Source: Escherichia phage P13771. From it: a stretch of DNA of 61,566 nucleotides. Of the stretch, positions 51,001 to 61,566 are shown piece after piece; the stretch's first letter is position 1; each line of letters begins with the position of its first letter. The stretch lies in sequence record HG792104. One strand, written 5' to 3'. A program made the position numbers.

Positions 51001-54000
51001 GCTTCTGCACCGGCAAGACAGAAACTGAGTGTTGGCGGCCAACTGGTGGCAGCGTAAGGGGGCAATATGGGATACGGTTTACTGGATATTGCAAATCAGT
51101 CGCGGCGTGAGGCATTACAGGGAATAAGTGACGCAGACAGACGACGTGAAGAAATTGAGGCTGCGAACAAACAGATGGCGGCGCAACAGAAAGCGCAGAA
51201 CAAGCAGAATATCGGTACGGGCATTGGTACGGGGGCGGCTATTGGCGCATCCGTTGGTGGTCCTGTTGGTGCTGTTGCTGGAGCAGTAATTGGCGGCATT
51301 GCTGGTTCTTTGTTTTAAGGAGTGGTGAATGAGCGGATTTGCACAGGGGTTACTTGCCGGATTCAGCACCGTTGACCAGGCAATGACCCGTCGTAAGGAG
51401 CTTGGTCTGCGTGAAGCACAGCTTGCCCGGCAACAGAAAAATAACGAGCGCGATTTTGAGTTTGCGCAGTCTCAGTTTGAACATAATAAAAACGTTGATC
51501 AGCGGAACTTTGATTACAGAGCCAAAGTTGACGACCGTAATTATGCACTGAAGGAAAGGGAGTTTAACGCTAACCAGAATTACCGGAATGCGTCACTGGG
51601 TATGGAGCAGCAGCGACTCCAGTTGCAGAAATACAACCAGCGACGGCTTGAGTATAACGATATGATTGCCCATAGCCAGCCACTAATGGAAGCGCTTGGA
51701 AAAGCAATTGAGGCTGGCGATCAGGAGGCTGCAACGCGTCTGTTCGGGCAGCTGCCAAAGGGACATCCATTAATTCTTATGTCAAACGAAGGCTATGCAG
51801 CGAAAGCGGGTCAGGCCGTGATCAACCTGCAAAAAATCTTTGGTGATAAGCCGGACATGGCGATCGATTCGCTGAATACCCCGGAAAATCTCGATGTGCT
51901 TTCCGGCGTGTTTGCCCCGGAACTACAACAGCGTATTGGCATGCCTGATTCAACCGGGGAAAAAACGATAAAAGAGGCCAGGATTGGCAGTATCGTACCA
52001 GCGCAGCAGGAAGGGTACGTACTTATTGGCCTTGATCTCACATACAGCGATGGCTCCACCGCGCATAAACCTGTAACAGAATACGGCAGTGCGCACCCTG
52101 ATGATCAAACCGTGCTGGCGATACCCGTTGATAAGGCTATCGCTCAGGTCAGGGATCGCAGCAAATTTGCAGAGATATCGAAAAATTATGGTTATTTTAT
52201 GCCGAAGCAGCAGGGACTTTCTCTGAAAGAGCTTCAGAAGGGGGCCAGCAACGTAGCGGCGGACGCGATCAAGAATGGCGGTAATGCTCAGGCTGCGGTG
52301 GATGAATATTATGCTGCGACTGGTTCACAACCGCATCAACAGAAAATTCAGCAACAAAAACTTCAGCAACAGGTTATCAACTGGGCGGGAGATGATCCTG
52401 ATAAGCTGTCATTTGCCAGAAATGTAGCGGCCCGTCAGCCTGAAATGCTGGAACCTCAGAATCAGAAATTGCTGGAGAACGGGTATGCGAATTTTCTCCG
52501 TATTCAAAAGGCCAGGGGGGAACAGGCCAGAGATGAAAGTGCTTCATCTGCATCTCAGTTTATCCGTGGACTGAAACAGAATTACGCCCAGTAATTCACG
52601 ATATTCCATTAATACCATTTCCTGATGCCCGGCCATTGTGCCGGGTTTTTTTATGGAGTCTGTATGGCCTATTCAGAGGAACAGCGTCCTGAGGCGCAAC
52701 TCGGTAACCAGAATCGTAACAGCCTGAACATTCAGCAACCCGGCGAAACTGACAGCTATGAAGCATTTTTCTCTGATCCGAATCGCTGGAAGGATAACAG
52801 TACGTCGTTCAGCCTGGGCGATGTATTGCCAACAATGGGTAAAGGTTTCGCCCAGTCCGTCCGGGGAACAGGGGAAATGGCCCGTGGACTCGGTGATGCG
52901 ATGATTCAGAGCCCGGTAAAAACAGGGGCGCGTATTTTAAATGAGTTTAGCCGTATGGGGCTGCCGGGTGTCGCAACTGTGCAGGATATTTTTGCCGGTG
53001 GCAGCAGGGGGGCTGATGAGGTCATCGATACCCTGCCTGATGGCAAAAACGCGGTTACTGATACTGTCGGTAAAGGTCTGAAGGCAACCGGTAAGGCTGT
53101 CAGTGATGGTGCCAAAGCCACTGATGAATGGCTGACCGGTAAGATGTCGCCGGGTGCAGTTCGTGCGCTGAATACGCCGATGACCGAAGGCTATAATGAT
53201 TCTGCGGTCTGGGTGGCGAAGGGTGTAAACCTGATTGGTGCGCTTGTACCTGATATGGTTGCTGGCGGTGTGGCTAGAAAGGTGGGTGATGTCACACTGC
53301 GAAAAATGCTGACCGCCGGGCTGGAGAAAAAATACATCGCGGCAGGGATGCAGCCGGAAAGAGCCACGGCACTGGCAGCAGAAGCTGTCGATAAAAAAAT
53401 GCCGGATTTATTCCAGGCGGGCCTGATCACCCATTCCACTGTAAGTGCACAGGGGCAGAGTGCAATGGCGGCAGCAGATGCTGTTCTTAATGCTGATTAC
53501 TCTGAGCTGGCGCAGTCACCGAAATTTCAGCAGACGTTTTTGTCCATTGACGCCGACCCGCAGCACGCACAGCTTACTGATCGCCAGAAAATGGATCTGG
53601 CAAAAGAGCGTGTTGCCGATGAGGTGCGCGCGCAGCTGGCAACCGATCCTGAATTGCTGGCTGTGAATGCCATGGCGGCAAAACTGGGTGACGCACAACT
53701 GTTTAATCTGGTGACACGAGGCACAGCGAAGACCGTTAAAAGCGGCATTGTCAGAAATGCCACTGCACAGGGGGCGATTAATGCGGCGCAGGGCGGCTAT
53801 TCACGCTATCAGGAAAACACGGCATTGCGTGAGACCGCCGGAATGGATGTATCGCCATGGGAGGGCGTGGCTGACGCAACGATCGAAGGTGCTGCCCTTG
53901 GTGCTGCGATGGGGGCTCCATTCGGTGCGGTTGCCGGATATCGTGGCAGACGTCAGGCCGCAGAAGAAACCGCCATGCGTGATGCTGAAACCGTGCAGCA

Positions 54001-60000: not shown

Positions 60001-61566
60001 GCAGAAAATCGCGCTTGCAGCTGTGGGAGCGGGTTATCTGCTTGGCTCGCTTAACCGCAGTGTTGCGGGGGAGGATGATGACGGGGTTAACTGGTATGAC
60101 AAGGTGCCGTCTCATGTGAAAGAGCGTAACCTCGTCATTATGAAATCGGTGTTCGGGGGCAAGGCCGGAGAGTACTGGAGTATTCCTCTGCCTTACGGGT
60201 ACAACGTTTTCTTCCTGCTCGGGCATACCGCTGAAGGTGTGGCGGCGGGTGACCTGACGGCGTCCCGTGCTGCCGGTAATGTTGTTGGTGGTGTGCTTGG
60301 TGCATTCAGCCCGATTGGCAGTGAGACGTCGGAAACACTGTCCGGGGCATTGCTGAAAAATGCAGCGCCGACCATTCTGCGTCCGTTTGCGAACCTTGCC
60401 ATGAATGAAAACTTCATGGGGGCGCAGATTTACCAGGAGAACATGCCGTTTGGTACACCAAAACCTGACAGCCAGCTGGGAAGACGTTCAACGCCAGAAG
60501 CGTACAAGGCGTTTGCATCCTGGCTGAATGCGTTCTCAGGTGGCAGCCAGTACCGTTCAGGCGCGGTGGATATCACACCGGAATCGCTGAAATACTGGGT
60601 GGACTATATCTCTGGTGGTACAGGGCGCTTCATTTCCAAAACCACGGATGCGGCGGTGAAATCGCTGAACGGTATTGATATACCGGAACAGCAGGTGCCT
60701 TTCCTGGGGAAAATTTCAGGTGAGGTGATGCCGTATGTTGACCAGCAGAAGATGTACGACCGGATGACAGAGGTTGCGCAGTATCACGCAGAGCTGAAGA
60801 GTCTGACCGGCGCAGAAAGAACGGCGTTCATTGACGAGAACAACGGAAAATTGTCGATGAACGGGCTTATGCAGGATACCCGGAAGAGACTGAAGGATTT
60901 GCGTAAACAGCGTGATGCCATTTACGCCGACAGTACTCTCAGTCTGGCGCAACAGTCGGCGATGGTGAAATCGGTAGAGCGGGATATGAAAATTGCCGTG
61001 GATCGGTTTAACCGCGAGTACAACAAAAAAGTGGGAGTGGATTAACAGAAATGGCCCCGTACGGAAGTGCGGGGCTAATGTGATTGGGGAGGGTGAGGAT
61101 ACCTGACACATCAGAGGTGGCGAGGGATTCCTCCCTTGCAGAGGTCTTTCTTCGTTATCAGTGCCGTCACAATGACGGTAATACAGAGATGAGCAGGGTG
61201 ATTAACATCGCCTTTTGCTGCTTTCATTGCATTTCTCCCGCGATAGCTCAGGCGTATTTGTCAATATGCAGAAATATTGATGAACGAATGACGGTAAATA
61301 CCCTACCCAGAAAATTAACGTAAATTCACATCGTAAACTTGCGTTAATTATCTGAAATATATACTTAAATCCCCTTAAATCTTTGGGGCGCTATTGGGGC
61401 AAAGTGTGGTTGTTTGGGGCATATTTGGGGCAAAAAAGAACGTATAAAGAACGGTGTAAAATCGATTTCTTTATGGTCAAAATGAGGTCTAACATATTGA
61501 AAAGTATATGCTCTTGGACGATCTTCGGTAATTCTGTGTTTTTAATGCTTCATGGTTTCAACATGT

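What the first reader, a model, noticed from the sequence alone, without database searches (positions are those of the whole stretch)
52664..61045. A roughly 2,790-aa protein with two HExxH metallopeptidase-like motifs at the end of the structural block
A single ORF fills 8.4 kb. It contains two separate HExxH motifs (AHEWFH near nt 56512; RHEIIHH near nt 57314) in otherwise unrelated contexts, long low-complexity charged regions and hydrophobic Gly-rich C-terminal segments. Size, position after small virion-protein genes and multiple enzymatic-looking modules fit an ejected internal or 'polyvalent' virion protein that could act on the cell envelope or host defences after injection. A terminator hairpin overlaps the first ATG of the ORF-track model, so the real start is probably 52664.
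Basis: partly seen in the sequence, partly recalled or inferred. Interest (0 to 1): 0.6.

Follow-up and report, generated by a model that had tools for sequence, protein, structure and literature searches.

The report
Giant ejected virion protein, Stx phage
This 8.4-kb gene of a Shiga-toxin phage encodes the already described, essential 2,793-residue virion protein (Sp5 ORF80 / phi24B gp47): a cysteine-free "polyvalent" ejection protein whose N-terminus is homologous to that of the phage N4 virion RNA polymerase, but which carries two zinc-protease-like domains and a predicted RNase instead of a polymerase.

Summary

The window is a short-tailed Stx2 phage, 100% identical to P13374/TL-2011c over this gene. 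The gene is Sp5 ORF80 (essential, Mondal 2016) and phi24B gp47 (abundant in virions, invisible by cryo-EM, proposed ejection protein, 2026 preprint).

What I add:
- Pfam "LPD1" is the C-terminal half of zincin 1.
- Zincin 2 has no significant Pfam match.
- "MuF_C" is a predicted PBECR RNase, not a peptidase.
- The N-terminal module (aa 41-427) is homologous to the N4 vRNAP N-terminal domain (hhalign 98.7%, E 2e-16).
- The ~950-aa alpha-helical C-terminal module is shared with giant virion proteins of Vibrio, Ralstonia and Burkholderia podophages that carry other cargo, and it has no solved structural relative.
- The protein and the four ORFs upstream contain no cysteine, a hallmark of ejection proteins.

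Catalytic activities and substrates remain untested.

The parts
52627..52653 (+). Intrinsic-terminator-like hairpin plus T-run between the upstream 421-aa gene and the giant gene. It overlaps the spurious upstream ATG at 52625.
52655..52666 (+). GGAG ribosome-binding site (52655-52658), 5-nt spacer, and the probable true start ATG (52664-52666).
   Evidence: The resulting 2,793 aa equals the length of Sp5 ORF80.
52664..61045 (+). Whole CDS: 2,793 aa, 308.5 kDa, no cysteine, no Walker A motif. Orthologue of Sp5 ORF80 (ECs1242), 933W L0134 and phi24B gp47.
52784..53944 (+). N-terminal module (aa 41-427), homologous to the N-terminal domain of N4-like virion RNA polymerases (N4 gp50 aa 105-446). 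It contains the most hydrophobic segment of the protein (aa 181-199), which aligns with N4's predicted membrane-spanning helices, and a Gly-zipper-like stretch (aa 406-428).
53984..55363 (+). Acidic, Pro/Gln-rich low-complexity linker (aa ~441-900). Its position matches the low-complexity linker that follows the N4 gp50 N-terminal domain.
   Evidence: No Pfam hit.
55364..56263 (+). LPD5-containing module (conserved from aa ~901; Pfam LPD5 at aa 1051-1200). Function unknown; Iyer 2017 considers it possibly enzymatic.
56207..56983 (+). Zincin 1 (aa 1182-1440) including Pfam LPD1. Conserved residues: strand-2 His H1263; H1284-E-W-F-H1288 (nt 56513-56527); D1291; and E1375/E1382 on the downstream helix.
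   Evidence: NCBIfam CLCA_X covers aa 1182-1437 as one domain
57146..57643 (+). Zincin 2 (aa ~1495-1660): three strands, then a helix carrying H1551-E-I-I-H1555 (nt 57314-57328). No significant Pfam match. A paralogue-like core of zincin 1; weak resemblance to the N4 gp50 zincin.
57896..58189 (+). MuF_C domain, the PBECR predicted metal-independent RNase (aa 1745-1842). Conserved K1745, H1752, H1801, S1816, Y1818, G1819.
58190..61042 (+). C-terminal ~950-aa, mostly alpha-helical module (aa 1843-2793) containing Pfam LPD38 (aa 2476-2681, nt 60089-60706). Shared with giant virion proteins of Vibrio, Ralstonia, Burkholderia and Bacillus podophages. No solved structural relative.
49952..52594 (+). 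Four upstream Cys-free ORFs that form one conserved cassette with the giant gene: 49952-50608 (218 aa), 50605-51057 (150 aa), 51067-51318 (83 aa, C-terminal Gly-zipper, annotated 'bacteriocin') and 51329-52594 (421 aa = Sp5 ORF79, essential).

Best explanation
The gene encodes the giant, capsid-packaged ejection protein of short-tailed Stx phages. It is built like phage N4 gp50, with the RNA polymerase replaced by other cargo.

Proposed mechanism:
1. The protein is incorporated into the head during assembly. This probably depends on the conserved alpha-helical C-terminal module (inferred from N4, where the C-terminal domain is needed for encapsidation).
2. After the tail needle is released, it leaves through the narrow tail channel as a flexible 'beads-on-a-string' chain, together with the Cys-free proteins encoded just upstream.
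3. Its N-terminal module, homologous to the lipid-binding N4 N-terminal domain, anchors it at the inner membrane as part of the trans-envelope DNA conduit. This would explain why the gene is essential.
4. The long low-complexity linker lets the cargo reach the cytoplasm. There the two zincin-like peptidase domains cut the polyprotein itself, or host proteins, and the PBECR domain cleaves RNA.

Shown, here or in the literature: the domain content, the homologies, the absence of cysteine, essentiality, and presence in virions. Inferred: ejection, membrane anchoring, self-processing, RNase activity and their targets.
For: Identity and published experiments:
- The gene is 100% identical to P13374/TL-2011c and 98.8% identical to VT2-Sakai (= Sp5).
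- Sp5 delta-ORF80 gives no plaques and no lysogens, but makes DNA-filled heads of normal appearance.
- phi24B gp47 is abundant in virions by MS and absent from the cryo-EM model, in which the whole tail is accounted for by other proteins.

N-terminal homology to N4 gp50:
- A profile trained without N4 hits gp50 aa 110-451 in register at 44-50 bits. The reversed sequence and 200 locally shuffled controls score at most -5.3 bits.
- Profile-profile hhalign against seven Schitoviridae vRNAPs gives probability 98.7%, E 2e-16, over 333 columns.
- The reciprocal PHROG vRNAP profile hits ORF80 weakly and roughly in register (E 0.004).
- The N4 N-terminal domain inserts into nanodiscs and is implicated in injection and membrane association; the N4 C-terminal domain in encapsidation.

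Cysteine depletion:
- ORF80 has 0 Cys in 2,793 aa, against 1.4% in other ORFs of the window (P about 7e-18).
- N4 gp50 and the Vibrio, Bcep22 and Gerry giants also have 0 Cys. So do 62 of 68 giant proteins that share the N-terminal module.
- This is a published hallmark of Schitoviridae ejection proteins.
- The four upstream ORFs are also Cys-free and syntenic in a Vibrio phage.

Modular carrier:
- The C-terminal module is shared with the giants of Vibrio (methyltransferase cargo) and of Bcep22/Ralstonia (SLT, methylase and helicase cargo). In each genome the giant gene is the last gene of the late operon.
- The JC1 homologue is virion-associated.

Zincins and RNase:
- The CLCA_X profile spans zincin 1 plus LPD1.
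- The PBECR His and Ser are conserved.
- Iyer 2017 proposes MPTase autoprocessing for this protein class.
Against: - Ejection into the cell has not been shown for any Stx phage.
- Sp5 delta-ORF80 particles did not bind anti-tail-fibre antibody (data not shown in the paper). That points to a role in tail completion, which a pure ejection-protein model does not predict.
- The C-terminal module shows no detectable similarity to the N4 C-terminal domain, so its encapsidation role rests on analogy only.
- The hydrophobic segments are only moderately hydrophobic.
- No processing of gp47 has been reported, and N4 gp50 is packaged unprocessed despite having a zincin.
- By position, the 83-aa and 150-aa upstream ORFs are not among the nine essential Sp5 genes, so a strict T7 gp14/15/16-type three-protein ejectosome is not supported.
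- No peptidoglycan hydrolase domain was found in the protein or the cassette.
Confidence: 0.65

Rival explanations
1. It is a tail-assembly factor, possibly an AAA+ ATPase that drives an energy-requiring step of tail formation. This is the original Sp5 interpretation. On this reading it is not an ejected protein.
For: Sp5 delta-ORF80 packages DNA and makes normal-looking heads that do not bind anti-tail-fibre (ORF67) antibody. A COG1483 hit was reported.
Against: There is no Walker A motif and no ATPase family in Pfam, NCBIfam or PHROGs. In the phi24B cryo-EM model the complete tail is built from six other proteins, and gp47 is absent from the map although abundant by MS. The N-terminal homology to the ejected N4 vRNAP and the total lack of Cys fit an ejected protein. 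Loss of tail fibres could be secondary, for example if an internal protein is needed to complete or stabilise the portal vertex.
Confidence: 0.15
2. It is an ejection protein whose metallopeptidase digests the peptidoglycan peptide cross-links, so that a conduit can reach the inner membrane. This is the proposal of the phi24B preprint.
For: Podophage ejectosomes often include a cell-wall hydrolase. Relatives in Bcep22 and Ralstonia phages carry an N-terminal SLT lytic transglycosylase. The preprint makes this proposal.
Against: The domain the preprint calls a metallopeptidase (MuF_C) is a PBECR RNase-type domain. The real zincins resemble protein-cleaving enzymes such as MtfA, Pro-Pro endopeptidases, lethal factor and CLCA-type self-cleaving proteases, not the LAS or M23 cell-wall peptidases (the latter point is from my own knowledge). 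They lie C-terminal to the predicted membrane anchor and a 460-residue linker, which favours a cytoplasmic location. ORF80 itself has no SLT or lysozyme domain.
Confidence: 0.12
3. It is chiefly a DarB-like anti-restriction or anti-defence effector, injected to protect the incoming DNA.
For: A PHROG labelled 'DarB-like antirestriction' matches aa 2351-2681. Polyvalent proteins are proposed counter-defence weapons. PBECR RNases might target CRISPR RNAs.
Against: The 'DarB-like' hit falls in the shared LPD38 carrier module, not in a methylase or helicase. ORF80 has neither domain. The gene is essential on E. coli K-12 MG1655, which is not expected of a pure anti-defence accessory.
Confidence: 0.08

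Closest known systems
Phage N4 gp50 / DEV gp71 virion RNA polymerase (Schitoviridae giant ejection protein)
   Same: - Homologous N-terminal module (hhalign 98.7%), followed by a low-complexity linker.
- An HExxH zincin upstream of a ~1,000-aa alpha-helical C-terminal domain that has no structural relatives.
- No cysteine.
- Last and largest gene of the late operon, preceded by smaller Cys-free proteins.
- Packaged in the head yet invisible by cryo-EM.

   Different: ORF80 has no RNA polymerase domains. Its cargo is LPD5, two zincins and a PBECR domain. The C-terminal modules are not detectably homologous. N4 gp50 has no LPD38. The host phage is temperate and uses host RNAP with Q antitermination (own knowledge).
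Bcep22 gp75 / JC1 gp69 / Ralstonia phage giant 'DarB-like' virion proteins, and Vibrio phage 1.205.O gp20
   Same: Same N-terminal module (E 1e-45 to 1e-103) and same C-terminal LPD38 module (E 1e-141 to 0). Same position at the end of the late operon after a 420-530-aa Cys-free protein. No cysteine. Virion-associated by MS in JC1.
   Different: The cargo differs: SLT, Eco57I-like methylase, SNF2-type helicase and LPD3 in Bcep22/Ralstonia; a methyltransferase in Vibrio. None of them matched the profile of the LPD5-zincin-LPD1 block, and Pfam found no MuF_C in them.
Polyvalent proteins with zincin MPTase domains (Iyer et al. 2017)
   Same: Several unrelated effector-type domains in one polypeptide, encoded among virion genes. 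It contains the MPTase hub domain with the phage-type signature (His at the end of strand 2, Asp three residues after HExxH), a PBECR domain, and the phage-only LPD38.
   Different: This is a class defined by architecture, not a mechanism. The paper's main text does not mention Stx phages or 933W.
T7 gp16 / P22 gp20-gp16 podophage ejection (core) proteins
   Same: Internal head proteins proposed to exit first and extend the short tail across the envelope.
   Different: No sequence or fold relationship was found. T7 gp16 carries a lytic transglycosylase (own knowledge); ORF80 has none.
CLCA_X / CLCA-type zincin domain
   Same: The NCBIfam CLCA_X profile aligns over its full length with aa 1182-1437 (E 8e-44). 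CLCA N-terminal zincins are self-cleaving (own knowledge).
   Different: The score (150 bits) is below the family cut-off (260 bits), so ORF80 is a relative, not a member.

Membership tests
Polyvalent proteins (Iyer 2017) | Two or more distinct effector or LPD domains in one polypeptide | tested here: met
   LPD5, LPD1, MuF_C and LPD38, all far above the Pfam cut-offs, plus a second zincin.
Polyvalent proteins (Iyer 2017) | Encoded with virion or late genes and delivered with the DNA | tested here: inconclusive
   The genomic context is met: it is the last gene of the late block. Virion presence comes from the phi24B MS data. Delivery into cells has not been tested by anyone.
Zincin-like metallopeptidase (MPTase) | HExxH on a helix that follows a three-stranded sheet, with an N-terminal helix | tested here: met
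   [not shown]
Zincin-like metallopeptidase (MPTase) | Third metal ligand (Glu) on a downstream helix | tested here: inconclusive
   Zincin 1: E1375 and E1382 are at least 90% conserved on model helix 334-352. Zincin 2: the model is unreliable after aa ~1560, so no ligand could be assigned.
Zincin-like metallopeptidase (MPTase) | Phage-type signature: His at the end of strand 2 and Asp three residues after HExxH | tested here: met
   H1263 and D1291 are at least 90% conserved in zincin 1. Zincin 2 keeps the strand-2 His (VHAFY) in the hhalign alignment.
Zincin-like metallopeptidase (MPTase) | Zinc binding and peptidase activity | not testable with these tools
   Requires biochemistry.
PBECR / MuF_C predicted RNase | [quoted passage not shown] | tested here: inconclusive
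   Pfam MuF_C E 1e-17 to 3e-19, above the cut-off. H1752 (96%) and S1816 (96%) are conserved in 25 divergent homologs. Their placement on the named helix and strand was not checked on a model.
N4 gp50-type giant ejection protein | Homologous N-terminal (injection / membrane) domain | tested here: met
N4 gp50-type giant ejection protein | Virion RNA polymerase core | tested here: not met
   No vRNAP Pfam domains in ORF80, whereas N4 gp50 has four. BLASTP and phmmer find no similarity.
N4 gp50-type giant ejection protein | Homologous C-terminal (encapsidation) domain | tested here: not met
   HMM E = 5; hhalign probability 0.1%. Only the layout is alike: a zincin followed by a large alpha-helical domain.
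N4 gp50-type giant ejection protein | Cysteine suppression, shared with adjacent smaller ejection proteins | tested here: met
   0 Cys in ORF80 and in the four upstream ORFs. Published criterion.
LPD38-type C-terminal carrier module (Bcep22 gp75-like giants) | ~950-aa C-terminal module including LPD38, at the C-terminus of the last late gene | tested here: met
P1 DarB-like antirestriction protein | DNA methyltransferase plus helicase domains | tested here: not met
   Neither domain is found in ORF80. The 'DarB-like' PHROG hit lies in the LPD38 region.
AAA+ ATPase (COG1483, as reported for Sp5 ORF80) | Walker A P-loop and an ATPase-family profile match | tested here: not met
   No [AG]xxxxGK[ST] motif. 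No ATPase family in three libraries.

The most novel reading that the evidence does not exclude
The N-terminal anchor module, and less certainly the C-terminal module, define one superfamily of cargo-swapping giant ejection proteins. It would span Schitoviridae (RNA polymerase cargo), Bcep22/GP4-like phages (methylase-helicase cargo) and Stx phages. On this reading the Stx-phage version injects active self-processing zincins and a PBECR RNase into E. coli ahead of the DNA. Every infection by a Shiga-toxin phage would then begin with a protease and RNase attack on host proteins or RNA, possibly defence components. The 'contaminant' 83-aa Gly-zipper protein seen in phi24B virions would be a genuine co-ejected membrane protein.
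Probability: 0.4. Interest if true: 0.65.

Novelty: already known. Interest (0 to 1): 0.42.

Why it matters
Short-tailed Stx phages spread Shiga toxin genes among E. coli, yet how they deliver DNA after binding BamA is unknown. This essential protein takes up 14% of the genome and is the best candidate for the delivery machine.

Its N-terminus is homologous to that of N4 gp50, for which structures and membrane-binding data appeared in 2026. That lets the N4 ejection model be carried over and tested in a medically important temperate phage. It also shows that the same carrier can hold a polymerase, a methylase-helicase set, or proteases plus an RNase.

Correcting the domain labels points the mutagenesis at the right residues: E1285, E1552, H1752 and S1816. 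The corrections are two real zincins, one of which has no significant Pfam match, and MuF_C as an RNase-type domain rather than a peptidase.

Tried and rejected
- Direct BLASTP of ORF80 against N4 gp50 found nothing significant. The best segments had E 0.35-0.87, although one aligned the second HExxH with the N4 zincin.
- Sequence searches against the PDB, using the whole protein, ORF79 and the A1 and A2 profiles, found no relatives.
- HMM and hhalign comparisons of the C-terminal module with the N4 C-terminal domain were negative.
- Zincin 2 against the N4 zincin was only weakly suggestive (E 0.002, probability 13%).
- The homolog search with full-length N4 gp50 timed out. The search with the N4 zincin region returned a single close hit, so I built the N4-family profile from six phage records instead.
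- The AAA+ ATPase idea is rejected (no P-loop). So are the tape-measure idea (the phage is a podovirus) and the DarB-like idea (no methylase or helicase).
- Classical transmembrane helices are not supported: Kyte-Doolittle peaks reach only 1.0-1.4.
- Literature searches by locus tag found only the 2016 Sp5 paper.
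Full report
**What is in the sequence**

The longest ORF runs from 52625 to 61045 on the + strand. Between the stop of the preceding 421-aa gene (52594) and this ORF lies a terminator-like hairpin, with stem 52627-52646 and six G-C pairs, followed by a T-run. It overlaps the first ATG.

A second ATG at 52664 follows GGAG by 5 nt. It gives a 2,793-aa protein of 308.5 kDa, exactly the length published for Sp5 ORF80. The 13 codons upstream (MPGHCAGFFYGVC) would add two cysteines to a protein that otherwise has none. 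RefSeq P13374 still uses the upstream ATG.

There are exactly two HExxH motifs, at aa 1284 (nt 56513) and aa 1551 (nt 57314). Composition predicts 0.037. The charged low-complexity region (aa ~440-900) and the Gly-rich, moderately hydrophobic C-terminal stretches (aa 2449-2463, 2536-2553) are also real.

**Whose gene it is**

Over these 8,382 bases the window is 100% identical to the Stx2 phages P13374 (from the O104:H4 outbreak strain) and TL-2011c. It is 98.8% identical to VT2-Sakai (= Sp5). In all, 185 phage records hold the gene at 90% identity or more. These are short-tailed phages of the Sepvirinae.

- Mondal et al. 2016 deleted 43 Sp5 genes. ORF80 (2,793 aa) is one of nine essential ones. 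The mutant gives no plaques or lysogens on K-12, yet it packages DNA and makes heads of normal appearance that do not bind anti-tail-fibre antibody. The authors called it a tail-formation gene and noted a COG1483 AAA+ hit.
- A 2026 preprint on phi24B found the orthologue gp47 abundant in virions by MS but absent from the cryo-EM model. That model accounts for the whole tail with portal, two adaptors, nozzle, fibres and needle. The authors listed LPD5, LPD1, LPD38 and a "Muf-C metallopeptidase", and proposed an encapsidated ejection protein whose peptidase digests peptidoglycan.

**Domain anatomy**

Pfam finds four domains: LPD5 (aa 1051-1200), LPD1 (1361-1440), MuF_C (1750-1839) and LPD38 (2476-2681). 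Neither HExxH lies inside any of these hits.

*Zincin 1.* I aligned 85 homologs of 22-61% identity with aa 1040-1720 of ORF80.
- H1284, E1285 and H1288 are invariant.
- H1263, Y1264, E1265, D1291, N1292, E1375, R1379 and E1382 are at least 90% conserved.
- This is the signature Iyer et al. give for the widespread phage-type zincin MPTase: a His at the end of strand 2 and an Asp three residues after HExxH.
- The conserved glutamates fall inside Pfam LPD1.
- NCBIfam's CLCA_X profile covers aa 1182-1437 as one 250-residue domain (E 8e-44, below the family cut-off).
- LPD1 is therefore the C-terminal helical half of zincin 1.

- minigluzincins, thermolysin, neprilysin and Wss1/Spartan

*Zincin 2.* The motif is conserved as HE(A/I/M)FH in relatives of 31-43% identity. 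Its profile aligns with zincin 1 over the strand-2 His and HExxH (E 4e-4). It aligns weakly with the N4 gp50 zincin.

*MuF_C.* By its authors' own definition this is a PBECR domain, a barnase/EndoU/colicin-like metal-independent RNase fold. It is not a peptidase. In 25 divergent homologs K1745, H1752, H1801, S1816, Y1818 and G1819 are conserved. That fits the His plus Ser/Thr active configuration.

*ATPase.* No Walker A motif and no ATPase family is present.

**The two terminal modules**

*C-terminal module.* The C-terminal ~950 aa (from aa 1843) recur at the C-terminus of other giant proteins:
- Vibrio phage 1.205.O gp20 (3,130 aa)
- Ralstonia phage Gerry 23F_00028 (4,219 aa)
- Burkholderia phage Bcep22 gp75 (4,602 aa)
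- proteins of the Bacillus phages Pascal, Pony and Pookie (partial matches covering 50-54% of the module at 22% identity; their sizes were not examined)

In the three fetched records (Vibrio 1.205.O, Bcep22, Gerry) this is the last gene of the late operon.

The cargo differs. It is a methyltransferase in Vibrio, and SLT, an Eco57I-like methylase, a SNF2-type helicase and LPD3 in Bcep22 and Ralstonia. Metagenomic relatives carry ART, InPase or LPD3 domains. The JC1 homologue is virion-associated, and JC1's portal, capsid and head-closure proteins resemble those of 933W.

*N-terminal module.* An exhaustive phmmer search with aa 1-480 found 108 representatives. Of these, 68 are giants of 1,300-4,665 aa, hit at their N-termini in nearly every case. 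Most also carry parts of the C-terminal module, and about 20 carry the LPD5-zincin-LPD1 block.

A profile of this family, trained with N4 excluded, hits N4 gp50 aa 110-451 in register at 44-50 bits. The reversed sequence and 200 locally shuffled controls reach at most -5.3 bits. Profile-profile comparison with seven Schitoviridae vRNAP N-termini gives probability 98.7% and E 2e-16 over 333 columns, aligning ORF80 41-427 with N4 105-446. Shared motifs include SP(V/F)(Y/F)Q and E(E/G)xxQGxTxQxxQN...KGV.

I did not find this link stated in the papers I read. Iyer et al. report that the N4 N-terminal region recovered nothing beyond related phages.

In N4, the N-terminal domain inserts into nanodiscs, has predicted membrane-spanning helices at residues 224-278, and is implicated in genome injection. 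A low-complexity linker follows it. The C-terminal domain consists of an HExxH zincin subdomain plus a ~110-kDa alpha-helical subdomain with no structural homologs, and it is needed for encapsidation. The protein is thought to pass the ~35 Å channel as beads on a string.

ORF80 has the same layout. Its most hydrophobic stretch (aa 181-199) aligns with N4's predicted membrane-spanning helices. However, the C-terminal modules of ORF80 and N4 are not detectably homologous.

**Cysteine and the cassette**

ORF80 has no cysteine. Other ORFs of the window average 1.4% Cys, which gives P of about 7e-18. N4 gp50, the Vibrio, Bcep22 and Gerry giants, and 62 of the 68 N-module giants also have none. The DEV study documents cysteine suppression as a conserved property of the Schitoviridae ejection operon.

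Here the four ORFs immediately upstream (218, 150, 83 and 421 aa) are also Cys-free. Each has a syntenic Cys-free homolog in the Vibrio phage. The next ORF upstream has three Cys.

The 421-aa ORF is Sp5 ORF79, which is essential. By position, the 218-aa ORF would be Sp5 ORF76, whose deletion cuts lysogenisation sharply; that assignment is my inference. The 83-aa Gly-zipper protein is the one annotated "bacteriocin". The phi24B authors detected a bacteriocin homolog in virions and set it aside as a contaminant.

**Most likely mechanism**

The protein is a head-packaged ejection protein of the N4 gp50 type.
- The C-terminal module probably mediates packaging (by analogy).
- The N-terminal module anchors the ejected chain at the inner membrane as part of the DNA conduit (by homology).
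- The linker and the bead-like cargo pass the tail channel.
- In the cytoplasm the zincins process the polyprotein or host proteins, and the PBECR domain cuts RNA (inferred).

Essentiality on K-12 fits a delivery role rather than a pure anti-defence role.

Points against or still open:
- The missing tail-fibre labelling in delta-ORF80 particles.
- No demonstration of ejection or of processing.
- N4 gp50 is packaged unprocessed despite having a zincin.
- The small cassette ORFs are non-essential.
- No cell-wall hydrolase was found.

**Verdict**

The increments here are:
- the second zincin, which has no significant Pfam match
- LPD1 as part of zincin 1
- correction of the MuF_C label
- rejection of the AAA+ idea
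- the Cys-free five-gene cassette
- the N-terminal homology to the N4 virion RNA polymerase, which makes the Stx-phage protein a cargo-swapped relative of a now structurally characterised ejection protein

Noticed in passing
window 49952-61045: Five consecutive ORFs (218, 150, 83, 421 and 2,793 aa; 3,665 residues in all) contain no cysteine, while the ORF just upstream (49456-49857) has three. Each of the five has a syntenic Cys-free homolog in Vibrio phage 1.205.O (gp16-gp20). This looks like an ejection-protein cassette analogous to N4 gp52-gp51-gp50.
   Followed up: partly
window 51067-51318: This 83-aa protein has a C-terminal Gly-zipper and is annotated 'bacteriocin' in P13374. The phi24B preprint detected a 'bacteriocin homolog' in purified virions and dismissed it as a contaminant. 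Its position and lack of Cys suggest it may be a genuine virion or ejected membrane protein. Against this, by position its Sp5 counterpart is not essential.
   Followed up: partly
window 52627-52653: A strong intrinsic-terminator-like hairpin sits directly in front of an essential 8.4-kb late gene. Expression presumably depends on Q-mediated antitermination reading through it. It might also lower the giant protein's dosage relative to the upstream genes.
   Followed up: no
window 52625-52663; L001 11962-20382: RefSeq P13374 annotates the giant gene from the upstream ATG (2,806 aa), whereas Sp5 uses 2,793 aa. The extension overlaps the terminator hairpin and adds two Cys, so it is probably a mis-annotated start.
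   Followed up: yes
[not shown]
   Followed up: no
proteins P0135-P0153 (Salmonella prophages): Many Salmonella entries of ~1,600 aa carry only MuF_C plus LPD38, some on long contigs. They may be split or frameshifted gene calls, or genuinely shorter versions lacking the N-terminal half. E. coli P0121 (1,578 aa) is similar.
   Followed up: no
window 47586-49028: A Lom/Ail-family outer-membrane protein gene (48294-49028) and a 205-aa ORF (47586-48203, no Pfam hit; annotated membrane-associated protein in P13374) sit as morons between the tail-fibre genes and the Cys-free cassette, inside the late operon.
   Followed up: no
bioRxiv 10.64898/2026.04.10.717836, section on proteomics: The preprint calls MuF-C a metallopeptidase and bases its peptidoglycan-degradation proposal on that. 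According to the paper that defined the domain, MuF_C is a PBECR RNase-type domain. The real zincins lie elsewhere: aa 1182-1440 (partly labelled LPD1) and aa ~1495-1660.
   Followed up: yes
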